Source: Candidatus Poribacteria bacterium
GTDB lineage: Bacteria; Poribacteria; WGA-4E; WGA-3G
DNA: 64,000 nt
NCBI GenBank assembly: GCA_965214095.1
Contig: OZ243938.1
Span: 2,048,001-2,112,000, forward strand
Direction: 5' to 3'
Below the pieces are notes generated by a model, which ran no database searches, was not told the DNA's origin, and saw only the letters and a program-made list of their open reading frames with translations. Within the stretch, counting starts at the first letter, position 1. Every line of letters begins with the position of its first letter. A program made the translations under genes and the position numbers. Below, in pieces: positions 1 to 22,551 of this stretch.

Positions 1-855
1 GATTCCATCGCTGCCTTGTTATTCGCAATTCAGGCAGTGCAGGCGAGTGGAAGTGAACCGAAGTTTAACATAGAATGCTCGTTCACGTGTGATGAAGAAA
101 CTGGGGGACAGTTGGGGGCAGGTTATATCGTTGAGAAGGGATTGGTCAATGCGGATTATGTTGTCAATTGCGAAGGCGGTTCTGAAATGAACATTGGTAA
201 TGGACATAACGGTGTTTTGTGGTGTGAAATTGATGTTCAAGGAAAAGCAGCACACGGATCTCAACCGGACAAAGGGATAAATGCTTTTGAGAAATCTGCG
301 GAACTTGTATCAGCACTGCAACGGGTTAAACGGGATTTGAAGTCTCCTGATCGCGCATTTAAGTTGCCTGATGGTAGTGAACGTTTTCCAACTATGAACA
401 TCGGTGGCACATTTCGCGGCACAGAAGGCGATAAAGTCAACACCGTGCCGGCACATCTCACATTTTCGATAGATAGACGTGTTACCCCGAATGAAAAACT
501 GGAGTTTGCGGAACTTGAACTACGTGAAGCGATTGTAGGCGCGTGTGATTACTATCCTGACTTAAAAGCGGATGTACGTGCTATTTTACGAATTGAACCC
601 TGTCTAACGGATCCCGAATCACCTTTAGCACAAGGTTTTGCTGATGCTGTGCGAACGGTTCGTTTTCATCAACCGCGGTTTAAGAGCACTGCTGGATTTA
701 CAGATTTACACTATTTTGTAAATACAGGTCTACCGGGTATTGGCTATGGACCGAAGGGTGAGGGTGGACATGCAATAAATGAACGGGTCTTTATTCCTGA
801 CTTGGTGCGGACATCTGCTATCTATGCCACCTTTATGACGCGTGCTGAACTATAA
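1..855 (+). CDS. M20 family metallopeptidase/deacylase (ArgE/DapE-like), 5'-truncated by window
   Basis: CDEE, GKAAHGS, KVNTVP, FTD and GHAINE motifs; frame open from base 1. Confidence 0.85.
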   Translation, partial: DSIAALLFAIQAVQASGSEPKFNIECSFTCDEETGGQLGAGYIVEKGLVNADYVVNCEGGSEMNIGNGHNGVLWCEIDVQGKAAHGSQPDKGINAFEKSAELVSALQRVKRDLKSPDRAFKLPDGSERFPTMNIGGTFRGTEGDKVNTVPAHLTFSIDRRVTPNEKLEFAELELREAIVGACDYYPDLKADVRAILRIEPCLTDPESPLAQGFADAVRTVRFHQPRFKSTAGFTDLHYFVNTGLPGIGYGPKGEGGHAINERVFIPDLVRTSAIYATFMTRAEL

Positions 856-18041: not shown

Positions 18042-18676
18042 GACACAGCATTTACATAATAACTTTGGAGCAAAACATGAGATGTTTTGGCACATTCGGT
18101 GATGCCATTCGTGGATTTCTACATACACTACGACAAATATATCTTTCAAATGCAAGCCTTAAGTGTCCATATAGTATCGGTATTGTTGGTGTAAAAAACA
18201 TCTCTCAACTTAACTATGATCGTTCCATTTCACCCTTTAACATTCAAGATGAGTTTCGGTTATCTAACTTTACACCCGCTCAAGTAGAAGAACTCTATTC
18301 ACAATACACAGAAGAAACTGGACAATCTTTGATCCCTGAGGTTATTGAAGCAGTCCACACTCAGACTGCAGGACAGCCGTTTCTTGTCAACAGATTCGGA
18401 CAAATTCTCACAGAAGAACTAAAAATACCGACATCTGAGACGATTCAGATGCATCACTTCAATAAGGCATACAAGAAAATTCTCAAAGAACGGAACACGA
18501 ATATCTCACACCTCATAACCAGCATACGCAGAGACCCACGTTTTGAGAAACTACTCATGCGTATCACATTCTATAAAAAACATATCAAGCAGTTAAACAG
18601 CAACTCGCTGCCTATTTAACACTCTTCCCGTCAAATCCCCATGCTTTAGCTTGCGGGATGTAGACGGGCAAAAAGG

Positions 18677-18791: not shown

Positions 18792-19904
18792 ATGAGAAAA
18801 ACCTATAAATACAAGGGACAAAATCAAAAGAACACAATCAAGTTAGGCAATATGCTTGACGATATGCACCAGATTCATGTGCATATTATGCGATTGCAGT
18901 GCAGATATTACCGTATGTATGGCAAAAACATATCCGCCTATAGAATGAATGCACATGTTGCCAAACTAAAAAAGCGGACAAAGTCTCATTGGACAGACTT
19001 GCCGAGTCAAGTTGTGCAAGATGTTGTGCTGCGTATGGGCAAAGCTTATGATGCATTTTTCAGAAATATGAAAGATCGCAAGGCTGGCAAAACAACGTGC
19101 AAAGTCGGTAGACCGCACATCAAACCGCAACACAAATACAACTCTATGACATTTACACAGGCAGGCTATAAACTTGAAGGGAACCGTATCAAGATCAACT
19201 GTATAGATACGTGGTTCTCCTTTCACAAACATCGTGAAATAACAGGTGACATCAAAACAATAACCCTCAAGCGTGACAGGTGTGGCGATTATTGGATATG
19301 CTTTTCTTGTGATAACGTTGACGCACCGAAATCTTTTGCCAAGACAGGTGAAAGTGCTGGCTTTGATTTCGGATTGACAACCTTTCTCACAACTTCTAAT
19401 GGTAATAAGATTGTGTCTCCGCAGTTTTTGAAAAAGTCCTTGAACAAGTTGAGAACACTGAATAAAAGCGTGAGTCGTAAAGTCGAGGGATCAGGCAATT
19501 GGTATCGTGCTATCCGTGCGTTGTTGCGGCAGTATAGGAAGATAGCACGACAACGTCTTGACTGGCAGTGGAAACTTGCTACAGACCTTTGCCGGCATTT
19601 TGATACCTTGTGCTTTGAAACACTAAATATAGACGGCATGAAACGCCTCTGGGGACGCAAAATCAGTGATCTCGCTTGCTACCAGTTCATTCAAGTGTTG
19701 GCATTCAAGTGTGCTAAACACGATAAAACTTTCCTCAAAATCGGACAATGGACAGCTACAACAAAACCTTGTAGCAACTGCGGACACACAAACGATAAAC
19801 TAACACTTTCAGATAGACACTGGATATGTCCTTCGTGCAATACTGAACACGATAGAGACATCAATGCAGCTATCAATATCAAACAGGCAGGCTTAGCTGC
19901 CTAA
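18792..19904 (+). CDS. tnpB: RNA-guided endonuclease TnpB
   Basis: RuvC GFDFG / FETL / DRDINAA, zinc finger CSNC..CPSC. Confidence 0.95.
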   Translation: MRKTYKYKGQNQKNTIKLGNMLDDMHQIHVHIMRLQCRYYRMYGKNISAYRMNAHVAKLKKRTKSHWTDLPSQVVQDVVLRMGKAYDAFFRNMKDRKAGKTTCKVGRPHIKPQHKYNSMTFTQAGYKLEGNRIKINCIDTWFSFHKHREITGDIKTITLKRDRCGDYWICFSCDNVDAPKSFAKTGESAGFDFGLTTFLTTSNGNKIVSPQFLKKSLNKLRTLNKSVSRKVEGSGNWYRAIRALLRQYRKIARQRLDWQWKLATDLCRHFDTLCFETLNIDGMKRLWGRKISDLACYQFIQVLAFKCAKHDKTFLKIGQWTATTKPCSNCGHTNDKLTLSDRHWICPSCNTEHDRDINAAINIKQAGLAA

Positions 19905-20017
19905 AGTGGAGATGACGTGAGATGGGTGATCCTTTTGGAGAAACGCTGTTGTCAAGGAAGCACAAGCCCCAACCTTTAGGTTGTGGGTCACTATGACAAC
20001 TGGAAAATGCAAGAGAG
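19800..20017 (+). ncRNA. Predicted TnpB omegaRNA/reRNA (5' end approximate) with guide from 19998
   Basis: Established TnpB architecture: scaffold spans the tnpB 3' end to the right end, guide is the flank. Confidence 0.55.
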
Positions 20018-20042
20018 GGATTTTACGTCGTGTTTGATTATC

Positions 20043-20276
20043 TTCAGGTACCCAAGCCTAAAAGCATGGGATTGTGTTAATCTTCTGCCAGGCTTGATGT
20101 TCTTCGGTCTTGGCTCGTAACTTTACCTGTATGCCACCGAGGGGTCCCAGCGACCCACGATACAGAACCTCAGACACTTCCGACTTCGGAAGTTGTTCGA
20201 GCGAACTATCGTCTTCGAGTTACTTGGACACGGATATAATCAACGTGCCCGATGCAAGACACTTCCGACTTGCTTG
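20043..20276 (-). ncRNA. Putative ~230-nt structured RNA
   Basis: Downstream of an internal promoter; consecutive hairpins; a G-U pair possible only on the minus strand; duplicated 15-mer. Confidence 0.55.
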
Positions 20277-20281
20277 GACAT

Positions 20282-20310
20282 ATAATAACAGACTTGACGT
20301 TTTCTGTCAA
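20282..20310 (-). promoter_or_regulatory. sigma70-like promoter inside the 332-bp element
   Basis: TTGACA-17-TATTAT on minus strand. Confidence 0.7.
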
Positions 20311-20508
20311 GCAAAATATAGGAACGGGCATTCCTCCCACACCTAAAGAAGTGGGCTTCCTGTCTAAAACGTTGGTGAGAATGCTATTTCAAAGGTTGAA
20401 ACAGATACGTATGATGGGTGTACCATACAGAGCTATGTTATTCCTGTCCTGCAACAACGACCATCCCAGGTGGTCTAATAATTTTCAAAGCAATATGCTG
20501 AGACAACT

Positions 20509-22551
20509 ATGAAACGAGAAAATATGCAAAAACAGATAATACAAGATAAGACTTTCACGAACTCAATCGGAATGCGGTTCGTAAGAATAGAATCCGGAAC
20601 CTATATGATGGGTTCTGCGGATGCGAACCTTTCAGATGAACTAACCTCAGGTAAAGAATACTTGAAAGATGGAGATTGGGATGAACAACCTGTACATCAG
20701 GTGACGCTCAGCACTCCCTTTCACATTGGAATCCATCAGGTAACGAATGCTCAGTATGAGGAATTCGATCCTTCACATAGCGAACAACGTGGAAAAATCG
20801 GCTTCTCAAAAGACGATGATGAGGCAGTTGTTTTTGTGGATTGGCACGAAGCGACACGTTTTTGCGAATGGCTCTCCGAAAAGGAGGGGCTCCCGTACCG
20901 TTTGCCAACAGAAGCGGAATGGGAATATGCATGCCGTGCAGGAACCATAACCCATTACCATATAGGTGATACTTTACCTGATGAATTTCATAAAAATGTT
21001 TGTGAGAGTTGGTATCCGGATGAGGGACGGAGTCGTGGTGCTGAGGAAATTGTGCCATTACACGTCGGCAAAACAACACCGAATGCATGGGGTATCTACG
21101 ACATGCACGGGAACGTTGAAGAGTGGTGTCGAGACTGGTATGGTCCCTATGAAGCACATCCACAGACCGATCCGAGTGGACGAGAATCAGGTTTATATCG
21201 TGTTACTCGGGGTGGTAGTCACTCAACTTTACTATGTTATCTGCGTTCTGCAAACCGTATGGGTGCTGTGCCTGAAGATAAACATTGGTATATTGGGTTT
21301 CGAGTTGTTTGTGGGGAGATGCCAGAAAAACCCAACCTATTGCCATCACCAAAGGTAGCGTTATGGGGACGTGATGTCAAGCAGGAGAAGACAGATGTTC
21401 CTGCCCCAGAAAAACCGCATTTTGCAGAACCGATTCCGTTTGTCCGTATTCCTGATGGTTCGAACGGTCCGCTATTTACAAATCATAACCATGTTCCTGC
21501 GATAGTAGAATGTCCGAATGGAGATATGTTTGCTGCGTGGTATTCGTGTGTAACTGAACGAGGAAGGGAATTGACAGTCGCTGCAAGTCGTTTGCGTTTG
21601 GGAGAATCGGAATGGGAGATAGCTGAACCGTTTTGGGGACCACCTGATAGAAACAACCATGCAACCTCGCTTTGGTGCAATGAAGATGGGAGGATTTACC
21701 ATTTCAACGGACTATCAGCAGCTGCGACGTGGGGTCCTTTAGCATTAGTGTTACGACATTCCGATGATAATGGGACAACATGGTCAAAACCACGTTTGAT
21801 CTCGCCTGAGCATAGACTGCGTCACATGCCTATCGCATCTGTTTTCCGAAGACAGGATGGTTCAATTCTCTTTGCTTGTGATGCTGTGAGTGGTGGAAAC
21901 GGCGGCACGGTCGTTTGGATAAGTGATGATGACGGAGAGACGTGGTATGAACCTGGTGCTGGTCAACCAATACCAGATTTTGCTGCGGGTAATAGTGGTG
22001 GATGGATTGCTGGTATTCACGGAGCTGTCGTGGAATTGTCTGATGGTCGATTGATGGGGTTTGGACGTGGTGATACGATTGATGGTCGCATGCCGAAAAG
22101 CATCTCTGAAGATGGTGGAAAAACATGGCAATATAGTGCAAGTTCGTTTCCACCTGTTTCTGGTGGACAACGGTGTGTATTCTTTCGACTTCAGGAAGGA
22201 CCGATTTTTCTTGCATCCTTCACAGGAAGCCGTAAAACACCCGAAACAATGCCTATCGTGGACGAATCGGGTAATGAACGCCATGTAACTGGACTATTTG
22301 GTGCACTCTCTTATGATGATGGAGAAACTTGGACAAATATTAGACTGATTTCAGACGACGGTGCTGACAGAGAAATTGAAACAATGGATGGTCGACCTTT
22401 TGTTATGGGATTGAATAGTGCAGAACCGGGTGGGTATCTTGGTGTTACCCAAGGAAGAAACGGTATCATTCATCTCATTAGCAGTAAACAGCACTATCGG
22501 TTTAACTATGCTTGGTTGAAGGAATCGCCACCCTCTCAACAGCAATCATAG
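20509..22551 (+). CDS. FGE-sulfatase (SUMF1-like) domain fused to a BNR/sialidase-like propeller
   Basis: RLPTEAEWEYACR, PNAWGIYDMHGNVEEW, RGGS, IGFRVV; four Asp-boxes SxDxGxTW. Confidence 0.88.
   Translation: MKRENMQKQIIQDKTFTNSIGMRFVRIESGTYMMGSADANLSDELTSGKEYLKDGDWDEQPVHQVTLSTPFHIGIHQVTNAQYEEFDPSHSEQRGKIGFSKDDDEAVVFVDWHEATRFCEWLSEKEGLPYRLPTEAEWEYACRAGTITHYHIGDTLPDEFHKNVCESWYPDEGRSRGAEEIVPLHVGKTTPNAWGIYDMHGNVEEWCRDWYGPYEAHPQTDPSGRESGLYRVTRGGSHSTLLCYLRSANRMGAVPEDKHWYIGFRVVCGEMPEKPNLLPSPKVALWGRDVKQEKTDVPAPEKPHFAEPIPFVRIPDGSNGPLFTNHNHVPAIVECPNGDMFAAWYSCVTERGRELTVAASRLRLGESEWEIAEPFWGPPDRNNHATSLWCNEDGRIYHFNGLSAAATWGPLALVLRHSDDNGTTWSKPRLISPEHRLRHMPIASVFRRQDGSILFACDAVSGGNGGTVVWISDDDGETWYEPGAGQPIPDFAAGNSGGWIAGIHGAVVELSDGRLMGFGRGDTIDGRMPKSISEDGGKTWQYSASSFPPVSGGQRCVFFRLQEGPIFLASFTGSRKTPETMPIVDESGNERHVTGLFGALSYDDGETWTNIRLISDDGADREIETMDGRPFVMGLNSAEPGGYLGVTQGRNGIIHLISSKQHYRFNYAWLKESPPSQQQS

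What the first reader, a model, noticed from the sequence alone, without database searches (positions are those of the whole stretch)
20043..20374. 332-bp IS200/IS605-type element whose only cargo appears to be a promoter-driven structured RNA
Seen: on the minus strand the order is TCAC | left-end hairpin | TTGACA-17-TATTAT promoter | ~230 nt of stacked hairpins | right-end hairpin ending TGAA. There is no TSD and no credible ORF. Deleting 20043-20374 restores TTT GAT TAT CGT GAG AAT (FDYREN) of the host gene. The stem GGGCACG/CGUGUCC works by G-U pairing only on the minus strand. I see no evident similarity to the 3' region of the neighbouring tnpB. Established: Y1 TnpA acts on such ends, and omegaRNAs take their guide from the flank. 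Inference: an RNA-only mobile unit, either a stand-alone guide cassette loading a TnpB-like protein in trans (predicted guide GATAATCAAACACGACG...) or an undescribed ncRNA class.
Basis: partly seen in the sequence, partly recalled or inferred. Interest (0 to 1): 0.85.

Follow-up and report, generated by a model that had tools for sequence, protein, structure and literature searches.

The report
Gene-less IS605 mini-transposon carrying guide-type RNA
This is a 332-base, protein-less relative of an IS200/IS605 jumping gene in a sponge-symbiont genome that carries its own promoter and a conserved folded RNA related to the guide RNA of the TnpB nuclease; the kind of element is already known, but this family has an extra RNA domain and its relatives sit strikingly often exactly at the start codons of host genes.

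Summary
Window 20043-20374 (minus strand) is one of 5 copies (96-100% identical) of a 332-335 bp element that inserts 3' of TCAC without target duplication. Eight related genomes show the uninterrupted site, and removing the element restores ...FDYREN... in a real host gene.

Its target and ends match a tnpA+tnpB IS605-type element ("IS-A", 4 copies elsewhere in this genome), not the neighbouring tnpB.

The interior is a ~232-nt structured RNA module behind a TTGACA-17-TATTAT promoter. It is absent from Rfam. A covariance model finds it in 51 of 151 genomes of the order, with strong covariation.

Its 3' half is related, by transitive model-to-model evidence, to the tnpB-3'-end/right-end (omegaRNA) region of IS-A-type, ISDra2-like TnpB elements. 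Its 5' half (~106 nt) is specific to the protein-less elements.

Best reading: a PATE/MITE carrying a stand-alone omegaRNA-type cassette used in trans. That concept is already in print (Meers et al. 2023), and this scan has met it before on other DNA. Transcription and TnpB loading remain unshown.

Unexpected extra: relatives of this element lie exactly between the Shine-Dalgarno sequence and the start codon of host genes, antisense, in 25 of 32 and 30 of 46 cases against 2-4% of sites (24% under a conservative null).

The parts
20043..20374 (-). The element ('M1'), 332 bp, a protein-less IS200/IS605-type PATE/MITE
   Evidence: 5 copies with unrelated flanks; empty sites in 8 related genomes
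20375..20378 (-). Target tetranucleotide TCAC (GTGA on the + strand) directly 5' of the left end. It would be the TAM of a cognate TnpB.
   Evidence: Conserved next to all 5 copies. Same tetranucleotide at 3 of 4 IS-A copies. Part of the uninterrupted host sequence.
20336..20355 (-). Left-end subterminal hairpin CCCAC-TTCTTTAGGT-GTGGG
   Evidence: The same LE block is shared with the second MITE family M2 and with tnpB-only elements.
20282..20310 (-). Sigma-70-type promoter TTGACA-17-TATTAT with TG extension. Its -35 is part of a palindrome (TTGACA..TGTCAA-like).
   Evidence: A TTGAYN-16..18-TAnnnT motif lies at the same place in 22 of 49 family loci, with the -10 ending 7-8 nt before the conserved RNA start in the close relatives.
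20169..20274 (-). RNA 5' domain (nt 1-106): hairpins H1 and H2, and a three-way junction H3/H4 enclosing H5 and H6. Contains the direct repeat AAGTCGGAAGTGTCT twice.
   Evidence: Consensus fold and covariation. Left unaligned (deleted from the match) in the alignments printed for TnpB-linked 3' ends. Occurs alone as promoter plus 5' leader of host genes in another genome.
20043..20168 (-). RNA 3' domain (nt 107-232): H7 and H8 (GGGUC-GCUGG-GACCC), H9/H10 (UCGGU..ACCGA), H11, and the right-end hairpin. This is the omegaRNA-like part.
   Evidence: nhmmer alignment to the last ~160 nt of IS-A (E 0.008-0.09). Transitive covariance-model evidence.
20051..20070 (-). Right-end subterminal hairpin CCCATGC-TTTTAG-GCTTGGG, followed by TACCTGAA, which ends the element at 20043
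   Evidence: Nearly identical to the IS-A right end AATGCCTTTAGGCTTGGGTAGTTGAA.
20023..20042 (-). Predicted guide segment (GATAATCAAACACGACGTAA), if the RNA reads through the right end as omegaRNAs do
   Evidence: Inference from position only. Differs in each of the 5 copies. In empty sites it lies directly 3' of TCAC.
19998..20042 (+). Context: 45-bp fragment of the disrupted host gene, between the neighbouring IS (right end at 19997) and M1
   Evidence: Orthologues read through both insertion points
20379..20512 (+). Context: C-terminal remainder of the disrupted host gene
18792..19997 (+). Context: neighbouring tnpB-only element 'IS-B' (tnpB 18792-19904, right end ..GGGTCACTATGAC at 19997). 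A different family, not the partner of M1.
   Evidence: Pfam OrfB_IS605 plus Cas12f1-like_TNB. Its right end and omegaRNA region match the M2 family, not M1.

Best explanation
M1 is a non-autonomous IS200/IS605 element (PATE/MITE). It is moved as single-stranded DNA by the Y1 transposase TnpA of the IS-A elements of the same genome, inserting 3' of TCAC. Its cargo is a promoter-driven RNA of about 232 nt. The 3' domain of that RNA derives from the omegaRNA (guide-RNA scaffold) encoded at the tnpB-3'-end/right-end of IS-A-type, ISDra2-like TnpB elements. Transcription that runs past the right end would add a copy-specific guide (here GATAATCAAACACGACG...). Loaded in trans onto IS-A TnpB, this RNA would direct cutting of the resealed empty site (TCAC followed by the guide match), so that recombination restores the element. 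This is the retention mechanism shown for TnpB-encoding elements.

Shown here: mobility signatures and empty sites; shared target and ends with IS-A; presence of intact TnpA and TnpB; a conserved, covarying, strand-specific RNA structure; homology of the 3' domain to TnpB-linked ends.

Inferred: transcription, read-through into the guide, TnpB binding, cleavage. The role of the MITE-specific 5' domain is unknown; it may stabilise the RNA or replace the part of the scaffold that lies inside the tnpB frame.
For: Mobility and ends:
- 5 copies with unrelated flanks and no TSD.
- 8 of 8 displayed orthologous sites are empty and precise.
- IS-A has 4 copies (tnpA 141 aa with Y1_Tnp at E 3e-36; tnpB 420 aa). 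It uses TCAC at 3 of 4 left ends, and its right end ..AATGCCTTTAGGCTTGGGTAGTTGAA compares with M1's ..CCATGCYTTTAGGCTTGGGTACCTGAA.
- IS-A TnpB matches the solved TnpB chains 8bf8/8ex9/8exa/8h1j at E 4e-49 over residues 5-374, and keeps the vDvG, tEnL and DRDhNAA motifs in the printed alignment to the top hit 9yyg.

RNA structure:
- 34 family members give 94.5% of cells paired, against 41-44% when partners are slid by one column.
- 32 of 55 pairs carry compensatory changes, and 0 of 500 shuffles reach the observed values.
- Frequent G-U pairs fit only the element's top strand.

Relation to omegaRNA:
- nhmmer aligns M1 nt 116-232 to the last ~160 nt of three IS-A copies, ending exactly at the right end (E 0.008, 0.019, 0.088).
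- The M1-based model R1 hits the 3' ends of tnpB in 15 of 30 TnpB loci at E<=1 (best 29.1 bits, E 8e-8).
- The same model finds the more distant MITE RNAs of another family of the order at 27-54 bits.
- Those RNAs are in turn hit over their full length by R2, a model built only from 18 TnpB-linked 3' ends (35.8, 30.5 and 24.7 bits; 11 hits at E<1e-3, 10 of them full-length).
- Shared parts: hairpin GGGCAGCUGCUGCCC ~ H8; helix CUUCGU..ACGAAG ~ UUCGGU..ACCGAA; CGAGAAAC; the right-end hairpin.

Against: - No transcript evidence. The only RNA runs found hold 0.05 of the sampled words, and laying their contigs gave only short fragments.
- The direct similarity of M1 to its own genome's IS-A is weak: R1 gives 13.9 bits (E 0.29 genome-wide, 0.007 in the small search). 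The TnpB-derived model R2 recognises only the right-end hairpin in M1 itself (15-19 bits, model positions 195-228). The omegaRNA link for M1 is therefore partly transitive.
- The full RNA was never found next to a tnpB gene: 0 of 49 loci and 0 of 80 pattern-scan loci, where one has an opposite-strand tnpB 1.7 kb away.
- The 5' domain has no counterpart in the TnpB-linked ends.
- At least 5 of the 51 RNA-positive genomes (G046, G016, G107, G151, G117) have no match to IS-A TnpB better than E 1e-32.
- In one genome the promoter plus 5' domain serves as leader of WD40 genes, with no right end. That points to a TnpB-independent use.
- The alignment used for the covariation counts was fitted to the model's structure, which inflates pairing.
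Confidence: 0.6

Rival explanations
1. The RNA works without TnpB, as a mobile regulatory module. A strong outward-reading promoter plus a structured RNA acts as an antisense or 5'-leader element on neighbouring genes. The omegaRNA-like 3' part is only ancestry, and the conserved 5' domain is the functional part.
For: - The 5' domain is conserved with covariation (H1, H2 and H5 show compensatory changes), yet is absent from TnpB-linked ends.
- In G107, four loci use promoter + 5' domain + RBS + ATG for WD40-repeat genes. In G003 a copy precedes an NPCBM-domain gene.
- Family members lie antisense exactly between the SD and the start codon of host genes in 25 of 32 and 30 of 46 cases. Background is 2-4% of sites, or 24% under a null that allows only non-coding sites.
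- TnpB-encoding relatives do not show this pattern (SD-like flank in 2 of 19).
Against: - The five M1 copies of this genome show no such placement (0 of 4 scored), and the window copy sits inside a broken gene.
- The module always keeps transposon ends, and its 3' domain retains omegaRNA-type helices under covariation.
- No expression data.
- No known RNA family matches.
Confidence: 0.2
2. The interior is an inert deletion remnant. The element needs only its two ends for TnpA. The promoter is the leftover tnpA/tnpB promoter of the left end, the rest is decaying tnpB-3' sequence, and the apparent structure reflects shared ancestry or single-stranded-DNA folding during transposition.
For: - PATEs arise by internal deletion of IS605-type elements (PMC3119063, passages read).
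- The LE promoter architecture is the same in IS-A (TTGACT-17-TATTAT).
- The M1 copies are too alike to show selection within this genome.
- The shuffle control does not remove phylogenetic relatedness.
Against: - Across three genera, 32 of 55 pairs keep pairing through double changes, and pairing collapses to 29-44% when partners are slid by 1-3 columns.
- Helices far from the TnpA-bound ends covary.
- Many conserved G-U pairs favour RNA over DNA.
- An extra ~106-nt domain was gained and kept rather than lost.
- The conserved block begins at the same nucleotide, 7-8 nt after the -10, in the close relatives, whatever the left end.
Confidence: 0.15

Closest known systems
PATEs (palindrome-associated transposable elements). 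Defined in Haloquadratum walsbyi (PMC3119063). PATE-like elements of Geobacillus stearothermophilus are said to often encode omegaRNAs for use in trans (Meers et al. 2023 preprint, PMC10055086).
   Same: No terminal inverted repeats. Subterminal palindromes like those of co-resident IS605-type elements. No target duplication. Too short to encode a protein. Multi-copy. Right-end-proximal guide-RNA-type scaffold. Dependence on TnpA and TnpB supplied in trans.
   Different: The RNA is enlarged by a conserved ~106-nt 5' domain that is absent from the TnpB-linked ends. The full RNA was never seen next to tnpB. The family is confined to Poribacteria records in the pattern scan. Its wider membership shows start-codon lodging. 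I read passages of both papers. Their supplements and extended-data figures, which show the PATEs, could not be seen.
ISDra2-type TnpB with its omegaRNA/reRNA (solved complexes 8bf8, 8ex9, 8exa, 8h1j). That these entries are from Deinococcus radiodurans ISDra2 is recalled, not given by the tool.
   Same: IS-A TnpB aligns to these chains at E 4e-49 over nearly the full length. The guide-RNA region is the 3' end of tnpB plus the right end. The TAM equals the TnpA target.
   Different: In M1 the scaffold is uncoupled from the gene and driven by the left-end promoter. The target is TCAC/TCAT, not the ISDra2 motif (recalled as TTGAT).
TldR, TnpB-like nuclease-dead repressors guided by transposon-derived RNAs to promoters (PMC10705468; only title and start of abstract seen in listings)
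   Same: A transposon-derived guide RNA might be used for gene control. In the wider family the putative guide is antisense to the ribosome-binding region of the adjacent gene.
   Different: No nuclease-dead TnpB was looked for or found here. In occupied sites the TAM and the guide match are separated by the element. This is a lead only.
IS200 left-end RNAs of Salmonella (art200 and the tnpA 5'UTR-derived sRNA; PMC4513863, PMC5435999; only listing and start of abstract seen)
   Same: IS200/IS605-family elements as sources of regulatory small RNAs.
   Different: Those RNAs come from the tnpA leader of an autonomous element. They are not a right-end scaffold on a protein-less element.

Membership tests
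PATE / IS200-IS605-derived MITE | No terminal inverted repeats, but near-terminal palindromes related to those of IS605-type elements | tested here: met
   LE and RE hairpins. The RE hairpin is nearly identical to that of IS-A. The LE block is shared with tnpB-only elements.
PATE / IS200-IS605-derived MITE | No target-site duplication; insertion 3' of a fixed short motif | tested here: met
   TCAC precedes all 5 copies and no repeat flanks them. The empty sites are precise.
PATE / IS200-IS605-derived MITE | Too short to encode a transposase; no conserved ORF | tested here: met
   332 bp. Internal ORFs of 36-84 aa differ in frame and length between relatives.
PATE / IS200-IS605-derived MITE | Several copies at unrelated sites, with presence/absence between genomes | tested here: met
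   5 copies. The site is empty in 8 related genomes.
PATE / IS200-IS605-derived MITE | A matching Y1 TnpA is available in trans and actually moves the element | not testable with these tools
   Four intact tnpA genes sit in elements with the same target and a near-identical right end. Catalysis was not tested.
TnpB omegaRNA | Encoded on the transposon's top strand, with the scaffold ending at the right-end boundary and the guide taken from the flank | tested here: inconclusive
   Position and strand fit. The 3' end of any transcript is unknown.
TnpB omegaRNA | Homology to the tnpB-3'-end/right-end region of a TnpB element | tested here: met
   Met for the 3' domain of the family (R2: 35.8 bits, E 2e-8; 11 hits at E<1e-3). 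The direct evidence for M1 itself is weak (nhmmer E 0.008-0.09; R1 13.9 bits). Not met for the 5' domain.
TnpB omegaRNA | Is transcribed | tested here: inconclusive
   Promoter motif. RNA-run contigs gave only fragments.
TnpB omegaRNA | Binds TnpB and directs TAM-dependent DNA cleavage | not testable with these tools
   No experiment possible. IS-A TnpB appears intact.
Any Rfam 15 family (including curated IS605/omegaRNA-type motifs, if present) | Reaches the family's gathering score | tested here: not met
   0 matches in the 64-kb window at gathering thresholds. In 19700-20600 at E<=10 the only match is a chance lncRNA fragment.

The most novel reading that the evidence does not exclude
The Poribacteria-wide family to which M1 belongs may be more than selfish debris. 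It could be a mobile layer of promoter-plus-RNA cassettes that lodge, antisense, exactly between the ribosome-binding site and the start codon of housekeeping genes (rpsD, ribB, thiE, glnA-like and others). The flank-derived 'guide' of each cassette would then be complementary to that gene's ribosome-binding region. This would give an RNA-guided (TnpB/TldR-like) or antisense control of translation starts, with the MITE-specific 5' domain as its functional core, and with parts already exapted as leaders of WD40 genes.
Probability: 0.12. Interest if true: 0.85.

Novelty: new variant of a known kind. Interest (0 to 1): 0.5.

Why it matters
As found, it adds a bacterial phylum (sponge-symbiotic Poribacteria) and a well-supported RNA family to the known class of protein-less IS200/IS605 elements that keep a TnpB guide-RNA scaffold. 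It also gives a clean natural case for testing whether omegaRNAs work in trans.

Two features go beyond the textbook picture. First, the scaffold has gained a conserved extra domain that exists only on the protein-less elements. Second, relatives of the element accumulate precisely at the start codons of intact housekeeping genes, while TnpB-encoding relatives with the same type of end do not.

If that placement reflects targeting or function rather than survival, it would bear on how single-strand transposons choose sites and on how guide-RNA cassettes become host regulators.

Tried and rejected
- Rfam: no family, either at gathering thresholds for the whole window or at E<=10 around the element.
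- Single-sequence folding: z-scores of -1.85 and -1.66 are not informative.
- Expression: the look-up of sequencing runs gave 5 RNA runs, each holding 0.05 of the sampled words. Laying three RNA runs and one other run (contigs only) gave short pieces over hairpins and a few interior fragments, no bridging contig and no ends. No verdict on transcription, and no joint showing an excised form.
- Search for a tnpB (or any long co-oriented ORF) directly upstream of the RNA: none in 49 loci or in 80 pattern-scan loci.
- Covariance model R1 on the own genome: only the 5 copies plus a weak IS-A hit. No hidden TnpB-linked full-length version.
- Replication-strand bias of M1, M2 and IS-A: the cumulative GC skew of the main contig is noisy and not closed, so no origin/terminus call and no test.
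- Pure survivorship as the explanation of start-codon lodging: copies with a 97.4-99.8% identical sister copy in the same genome are still start-like in 11 of 18 cases (p about 8e-4 against the 24% null). Survivorship alone looks insufficient, but it is not excluded.
- Literature: 'Poribacteria' + 'TnpB' gave 0 papers. A search for IS200/TnpA/target site/start codon/Shine-Dalgarno listed nothing on start-codon lodging, judged from titles and abstract starts only. The Borrelia IS605 stem-loop paper (PMC2775950) has one irrelevant 'start codon' passage. One search was rejected for a malformed term and was redone with other terms.
- Weak alignments of H1/H2 to the zinc-finger/RuvC-III coding part of tnpB were considered as evidence that the 5' domain also derives from tnpB. 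They are too weak to claim.

Full report
**What is there**

Read on the minus strand, window 20043-20374 runs as follows:
- TCAC, then the left-end hairpin (20355-20336);
- a TTGACA-17-TATTAT promoter (20310-20282);
- about 232 nt of stacked hairpins;
- the right-end hairpin (20070-20051), ending ...TACCTGAA at 20043.

The own genome (5.25 Mb, 4 contigs) holds five full-length copies at 96-100% identity. Aligned with their flanks, similarity stops exactly at these two boundaries. TCAC precedes every copy and there is no target duplication.

The sequence downstream of the element was found in 40 of 40 genomes of the genus. The eight orthologous loci I displayed all read ...TTTGA(T/C)TATC|GTGAGAA... 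without interruption, inside a conserved frame. In the window this host gene is broken twice: by M1, and 45 bp away by the neighbouring tnpB-only element, whose right end lies at 19997.

**Which transposon it belongs to**

The genome has 22 matches to the TnpB TNB domain and 5 to Y1 TnpA.

Four elements ("IS-A") carry tnpA (141 aa) followed by tnpB (420 aa). Three of the four are preceded by TCAC. Their right end..AATGCCTTTAGGCTTGGGTAGTTGAA, is almost that of M1..CCATGCYTTTAGGCTTGGGTACCTGAA. Their left end carries a promoter of the same build (Pfam).

IS-A TnpB aligns to the solved TnpB chains 8bf8/8ex9/8exa/8h1j at E 4e-49 over residues 5-374. That those entries are ISDra2 is from memory.

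The neighbouring tnpB (18792-19904, "IS-B") is a different family. Its right end and downstream region match a second protein-less element family of this genome, M2 (four copies of about 412 bp, target TCAT), not M1.

M1 meets every structural criterion of a PATE as defined by Dyall-Smith et al. (PMC3119063, passages read).

**The cargo is a real, conserved RNA-type structure**

Relatives at 84-85% identity occur in another species of the genus. More distant ones have different left and right ends but the same interior, which always begins at the same AGCAAGUCGG... nucleotide.

A nine-sequence alignment folds into 55 pairs, 7 of them with compensatory changes. A covariance model built from it (R1) finds:
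- only the five copies plus a weak IS-A hit in the own genome;
- 6 of 40 genomes of the genus;
- 51 of 151 genomes drawn from the order (6/37, 33/60, 10/20 and 1/3 in four genera).

On 34 aligned members, 94.5% of cells form standard pairs, against 41-44% when partners are slid by one column. 32 of 55 pairs show changes on both sides, and no shuffle out of 500 reaches the observed values. Two caveats apply: the alignment was fitted to the model's structure, and the shuffles ignore relatedness.

Many conserved G-U pairs fit only the element's top strand. That favours an RNA made from the internal promoter.

A promoter motif sits at the same place in 22 of 49 family loci by a strict pattern, with the -10 ending 7-8 nt before the conserved start in the close relatives.

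Rfam 15 has no match.

An exact 20-base pattern from the 3' domain occurs in 87 stretches of the 185,579-species collection. All 80 listed come from records titled Candidatus or uncultured Poribacteria. This agrees with earlier unchecked notes of this scan on the genome's identity.

**Is it an omegaRNA?**

The evidence is good for the 3' half, partly transitive for M1 itself, and negative for the 5' half.

- nhmmer aligns M1 nt 116-232 to the last ~160 nt of three IS-A copies, ending exactly at the right end (E 0.008, 0.019, 0.088).
- IS-A-type TnpB is very common in the order: 118 of 151 genomes match at E<=1e-20, although that threshold also admits other TnpB lineages.
- R1 hits the 3' ends of tnpB in 15 of 30 such loci at E<=1. 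The best is 29.1 bits, E 8e-8; the own genome's IS-A gives 13.9 bits.
- In these elements the tnpB frame runs through the right-end hairpin. The conserved hairpin GGGCAGCUGCUGCCC encodes RAAAAR just after the DRDHNAA motif.
- A second model, R2, was built only from 18 TnpB-linked 3' ends. In 53 MITE loci it finds 40 matches at E<=1, 11 of them below 1e-3, of which 10 are full-length alignments (35.8, 30.5, 24.7 ... bits).
- Those strongest R2 hits are the MITE RNAs of another family of the order. R1 itself finds the same RNAs at 27-54 bits.
- In M1 proper, R2 recognises only the right-end hairpin.

The shared architecture is:
- hairpin H8 with a GCUG loop;
- the long-range helix CUUCGU..ACGAAG (UUCGGU..ACCGAA in the MITEs);
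- CGAGAAAC;
- the right-end hairpin.

By contrast, nt ~52-106 of the MITE RNA (the H3-H6 junction) is left unaligned (deleted from the match) in all three TnpB-linked alignments printed.

The full RNA was never found next to tnpB: 0 of 49 loci by tblastn with 11 TnpB queries, and 0 of 80 pattern-scan loci.

The statement that PATEs often encode omegaRNAs to be used in trans by TnpB from other elements is in the discussion of Meers et al. (PMC10055086). I could not see their supplements or extended-data figures. This scan has reported the same kind of element several times on other DNA.

**What could not be shown**

Transcription. The five RNA runs found each hold 0.05 of the sampled words. Laying the contigs of three of them, plus one other run, gave fragments only. 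Nothing here tests TnpB binding or cleavage.

**An unexpected property of the wider family**

The target TCAT/TCAC is the complement of ATGA/GTGA.

*First set.* Of 49 family loci, 32 had both ends called automatically; 17 were dropped for an uncalled end.
- In 25 of the 32, the CAT/CAC is the first codon of an ORF of at least 122 codons on the opposite strand, with an in-frame stop shortly upstream in the rebuilt site.
- By target type: 21 of 22 TCAT-type and 4 of 10 TCAC-type. The own-genome M1 copies score 0 of 4.
- 20 of the 32 have an SD-like tetramer 3-13 nt before the junction in the right-end-side flank.

*Second set.* In the 80 pattern-scan loci, 46 had both ends called, one of them a mis-call. 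Of these, 30 are start-like and 31 have the SD-like motif. The two sets overlap and contain some orthologous sites.

*Are these real gene starts?*
- Seven of eight host ORFs tested have Pfam domains that begin at profile positions 1-25 within the first 7-16 residues. They include DHBP synthase, TMP-TENI, Gln-synt_N and aldo-keto reductase.
- One host gene begins MSKYLGSVCKLCRREGEKLF, which I recognise from memory as ribosomal protein S4.
- Six of seven queried orthologues were found in the own genome. All six align from residue 1, with no element present.

*Background.*
- In the own genome, 4.4% of 55,046 ATGA sites and 2.0% of 41,308 GTGA sites meet the same criterion.
- Under a conservative null that removes every site inside a long ORF, the expectation is 24%.

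*Controls.*
- TnpB-encoding IS-A-type relatives have an SD-like flank in only 2 of 19 cases.
- Copies with a 97.4-99.8% identical sister in the same genome are still start-like in 11 of 18 cases.

Long-term survival in protected positions therefore does not explain it all. I cannot tell targeting, rapid selection and function apart.

Each such copy separates SD from ATG by about 290-520 nt and is antisense to the gene. Its putative guide would be complementary to the gene's ribosome-binding region.

Separately, in one genome four WD40-repeat genes use the family's promoter plus 5' domain as their leader, with no right end. In another genome a copy precedes an NPCBM-domain gene.

**Verdict**

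The element is a PATE-type derivative of an ISDra2-like IS605 family, and its cargo is an omegaRNA-derived, enlarged RNA module.

The most likely function is a stand-alone guide cassette serving TnpB in trans for retention of the element (confidence 0.6). That is a known kind of system, so the finding is a new variant rather than a new class.

Two things lift it above ordinary: the MITE-specific 5' domain, and the start-codon lodging of its relatives. Neither applies demonstrably to the window's own copy.

Noticed in passing
Family loci L046-L103 and L156-L235 (other genomes); not the window's own copy: Relatives of the element lie antisense, exactly between the Shine-Dalgarno sequence and the ATG/GTG of intact host genes (S4-like, RibB, ThiE, GlnA-like, LOG, aldo-keto reductase...). 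This holds in 25 of 32 and 30 of 46 scored cases, against 2-4% of all such sites and 24% under a non-coding-only null. TnpB-encoding relatives do not show it (2 of 19 with an SD-like flank).
   Followed up: partly
L104, L107, L108, L109 (one genome); L036/L055 (another genome): The family's promoter plus RNA 5' domain, without transposon ends, directly precedes the RBS and ATG of four paralogous WD40-repeat genes. A near-complete copy precedes an NPCBM-domain gene. This looks like exaptation as promoter and 5' leader.
   Followed up: partly
Own genome C1:781021-781433(+), 5082154-5082566(+), 959175-959580(-), 3279135-3279547(-): A second protein-less family, M2 (~412 bp, 4 copies, target TCAT), shares M1's left-end and promoter block. 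Its last ~90-150 nt match the region downstream of IS-B-type tnpB genes, including the window's neighbour. Its ~210-nt middle part matches nothing.
   Followed up: partly
window 18065-18619, 19998-20042, 20379-20512 (+): One host gene (AAA_35-like N-terminal piece; conserved C-terminal part ...YIVFDYREN...) is broken by two different IS200/IS605-type insertions only 45 bp apart: IS-B ending at 19997, and M1 at 20043-20374.
   Followed up: partly
L111:747-2009 (IS-A copy of the own genome) and 18 relatives (alignment A3): The tnpB frame of IS-A-type elements runs through the right-end hairpin to a stop inside GGGTAGTTGA. The conserved RNA hairpin GGGCAGCTGCTGCCC is read as RAAAAR. The guide-RNA scaffold and the protein tail are therefore co-encoded along ~170 nt.
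   Followed up: partly
window 20253-20270 and 20171-20188 (-): The 15-nt string AAGTCGGAAGTGTCT occurs twice inside the RNA. One copy forms the loop and 3' side of hairpin H1, the other the 3' side of H6. Both are conserved in relatives. Meaning unknown.
   Followed up: no
window 20292-20312 (-), and the same place in relatives: The -35 hexamer is half of a palindrome (TTGACA n5-7 TGTCAA-like), so a -35-like box also faces the left end on the other strand. No matching -10 was found there by the scan.
   Followed up: partly
Own genome C1: TNB-domain hits at 3415447, 2453109, 2759652, 3209118: Four larger TnpB-like ORFs (528-568 aa) have a divergent C-terminal motif (..RDLNGARGIF..). They were not examined further.
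   Followed up: no
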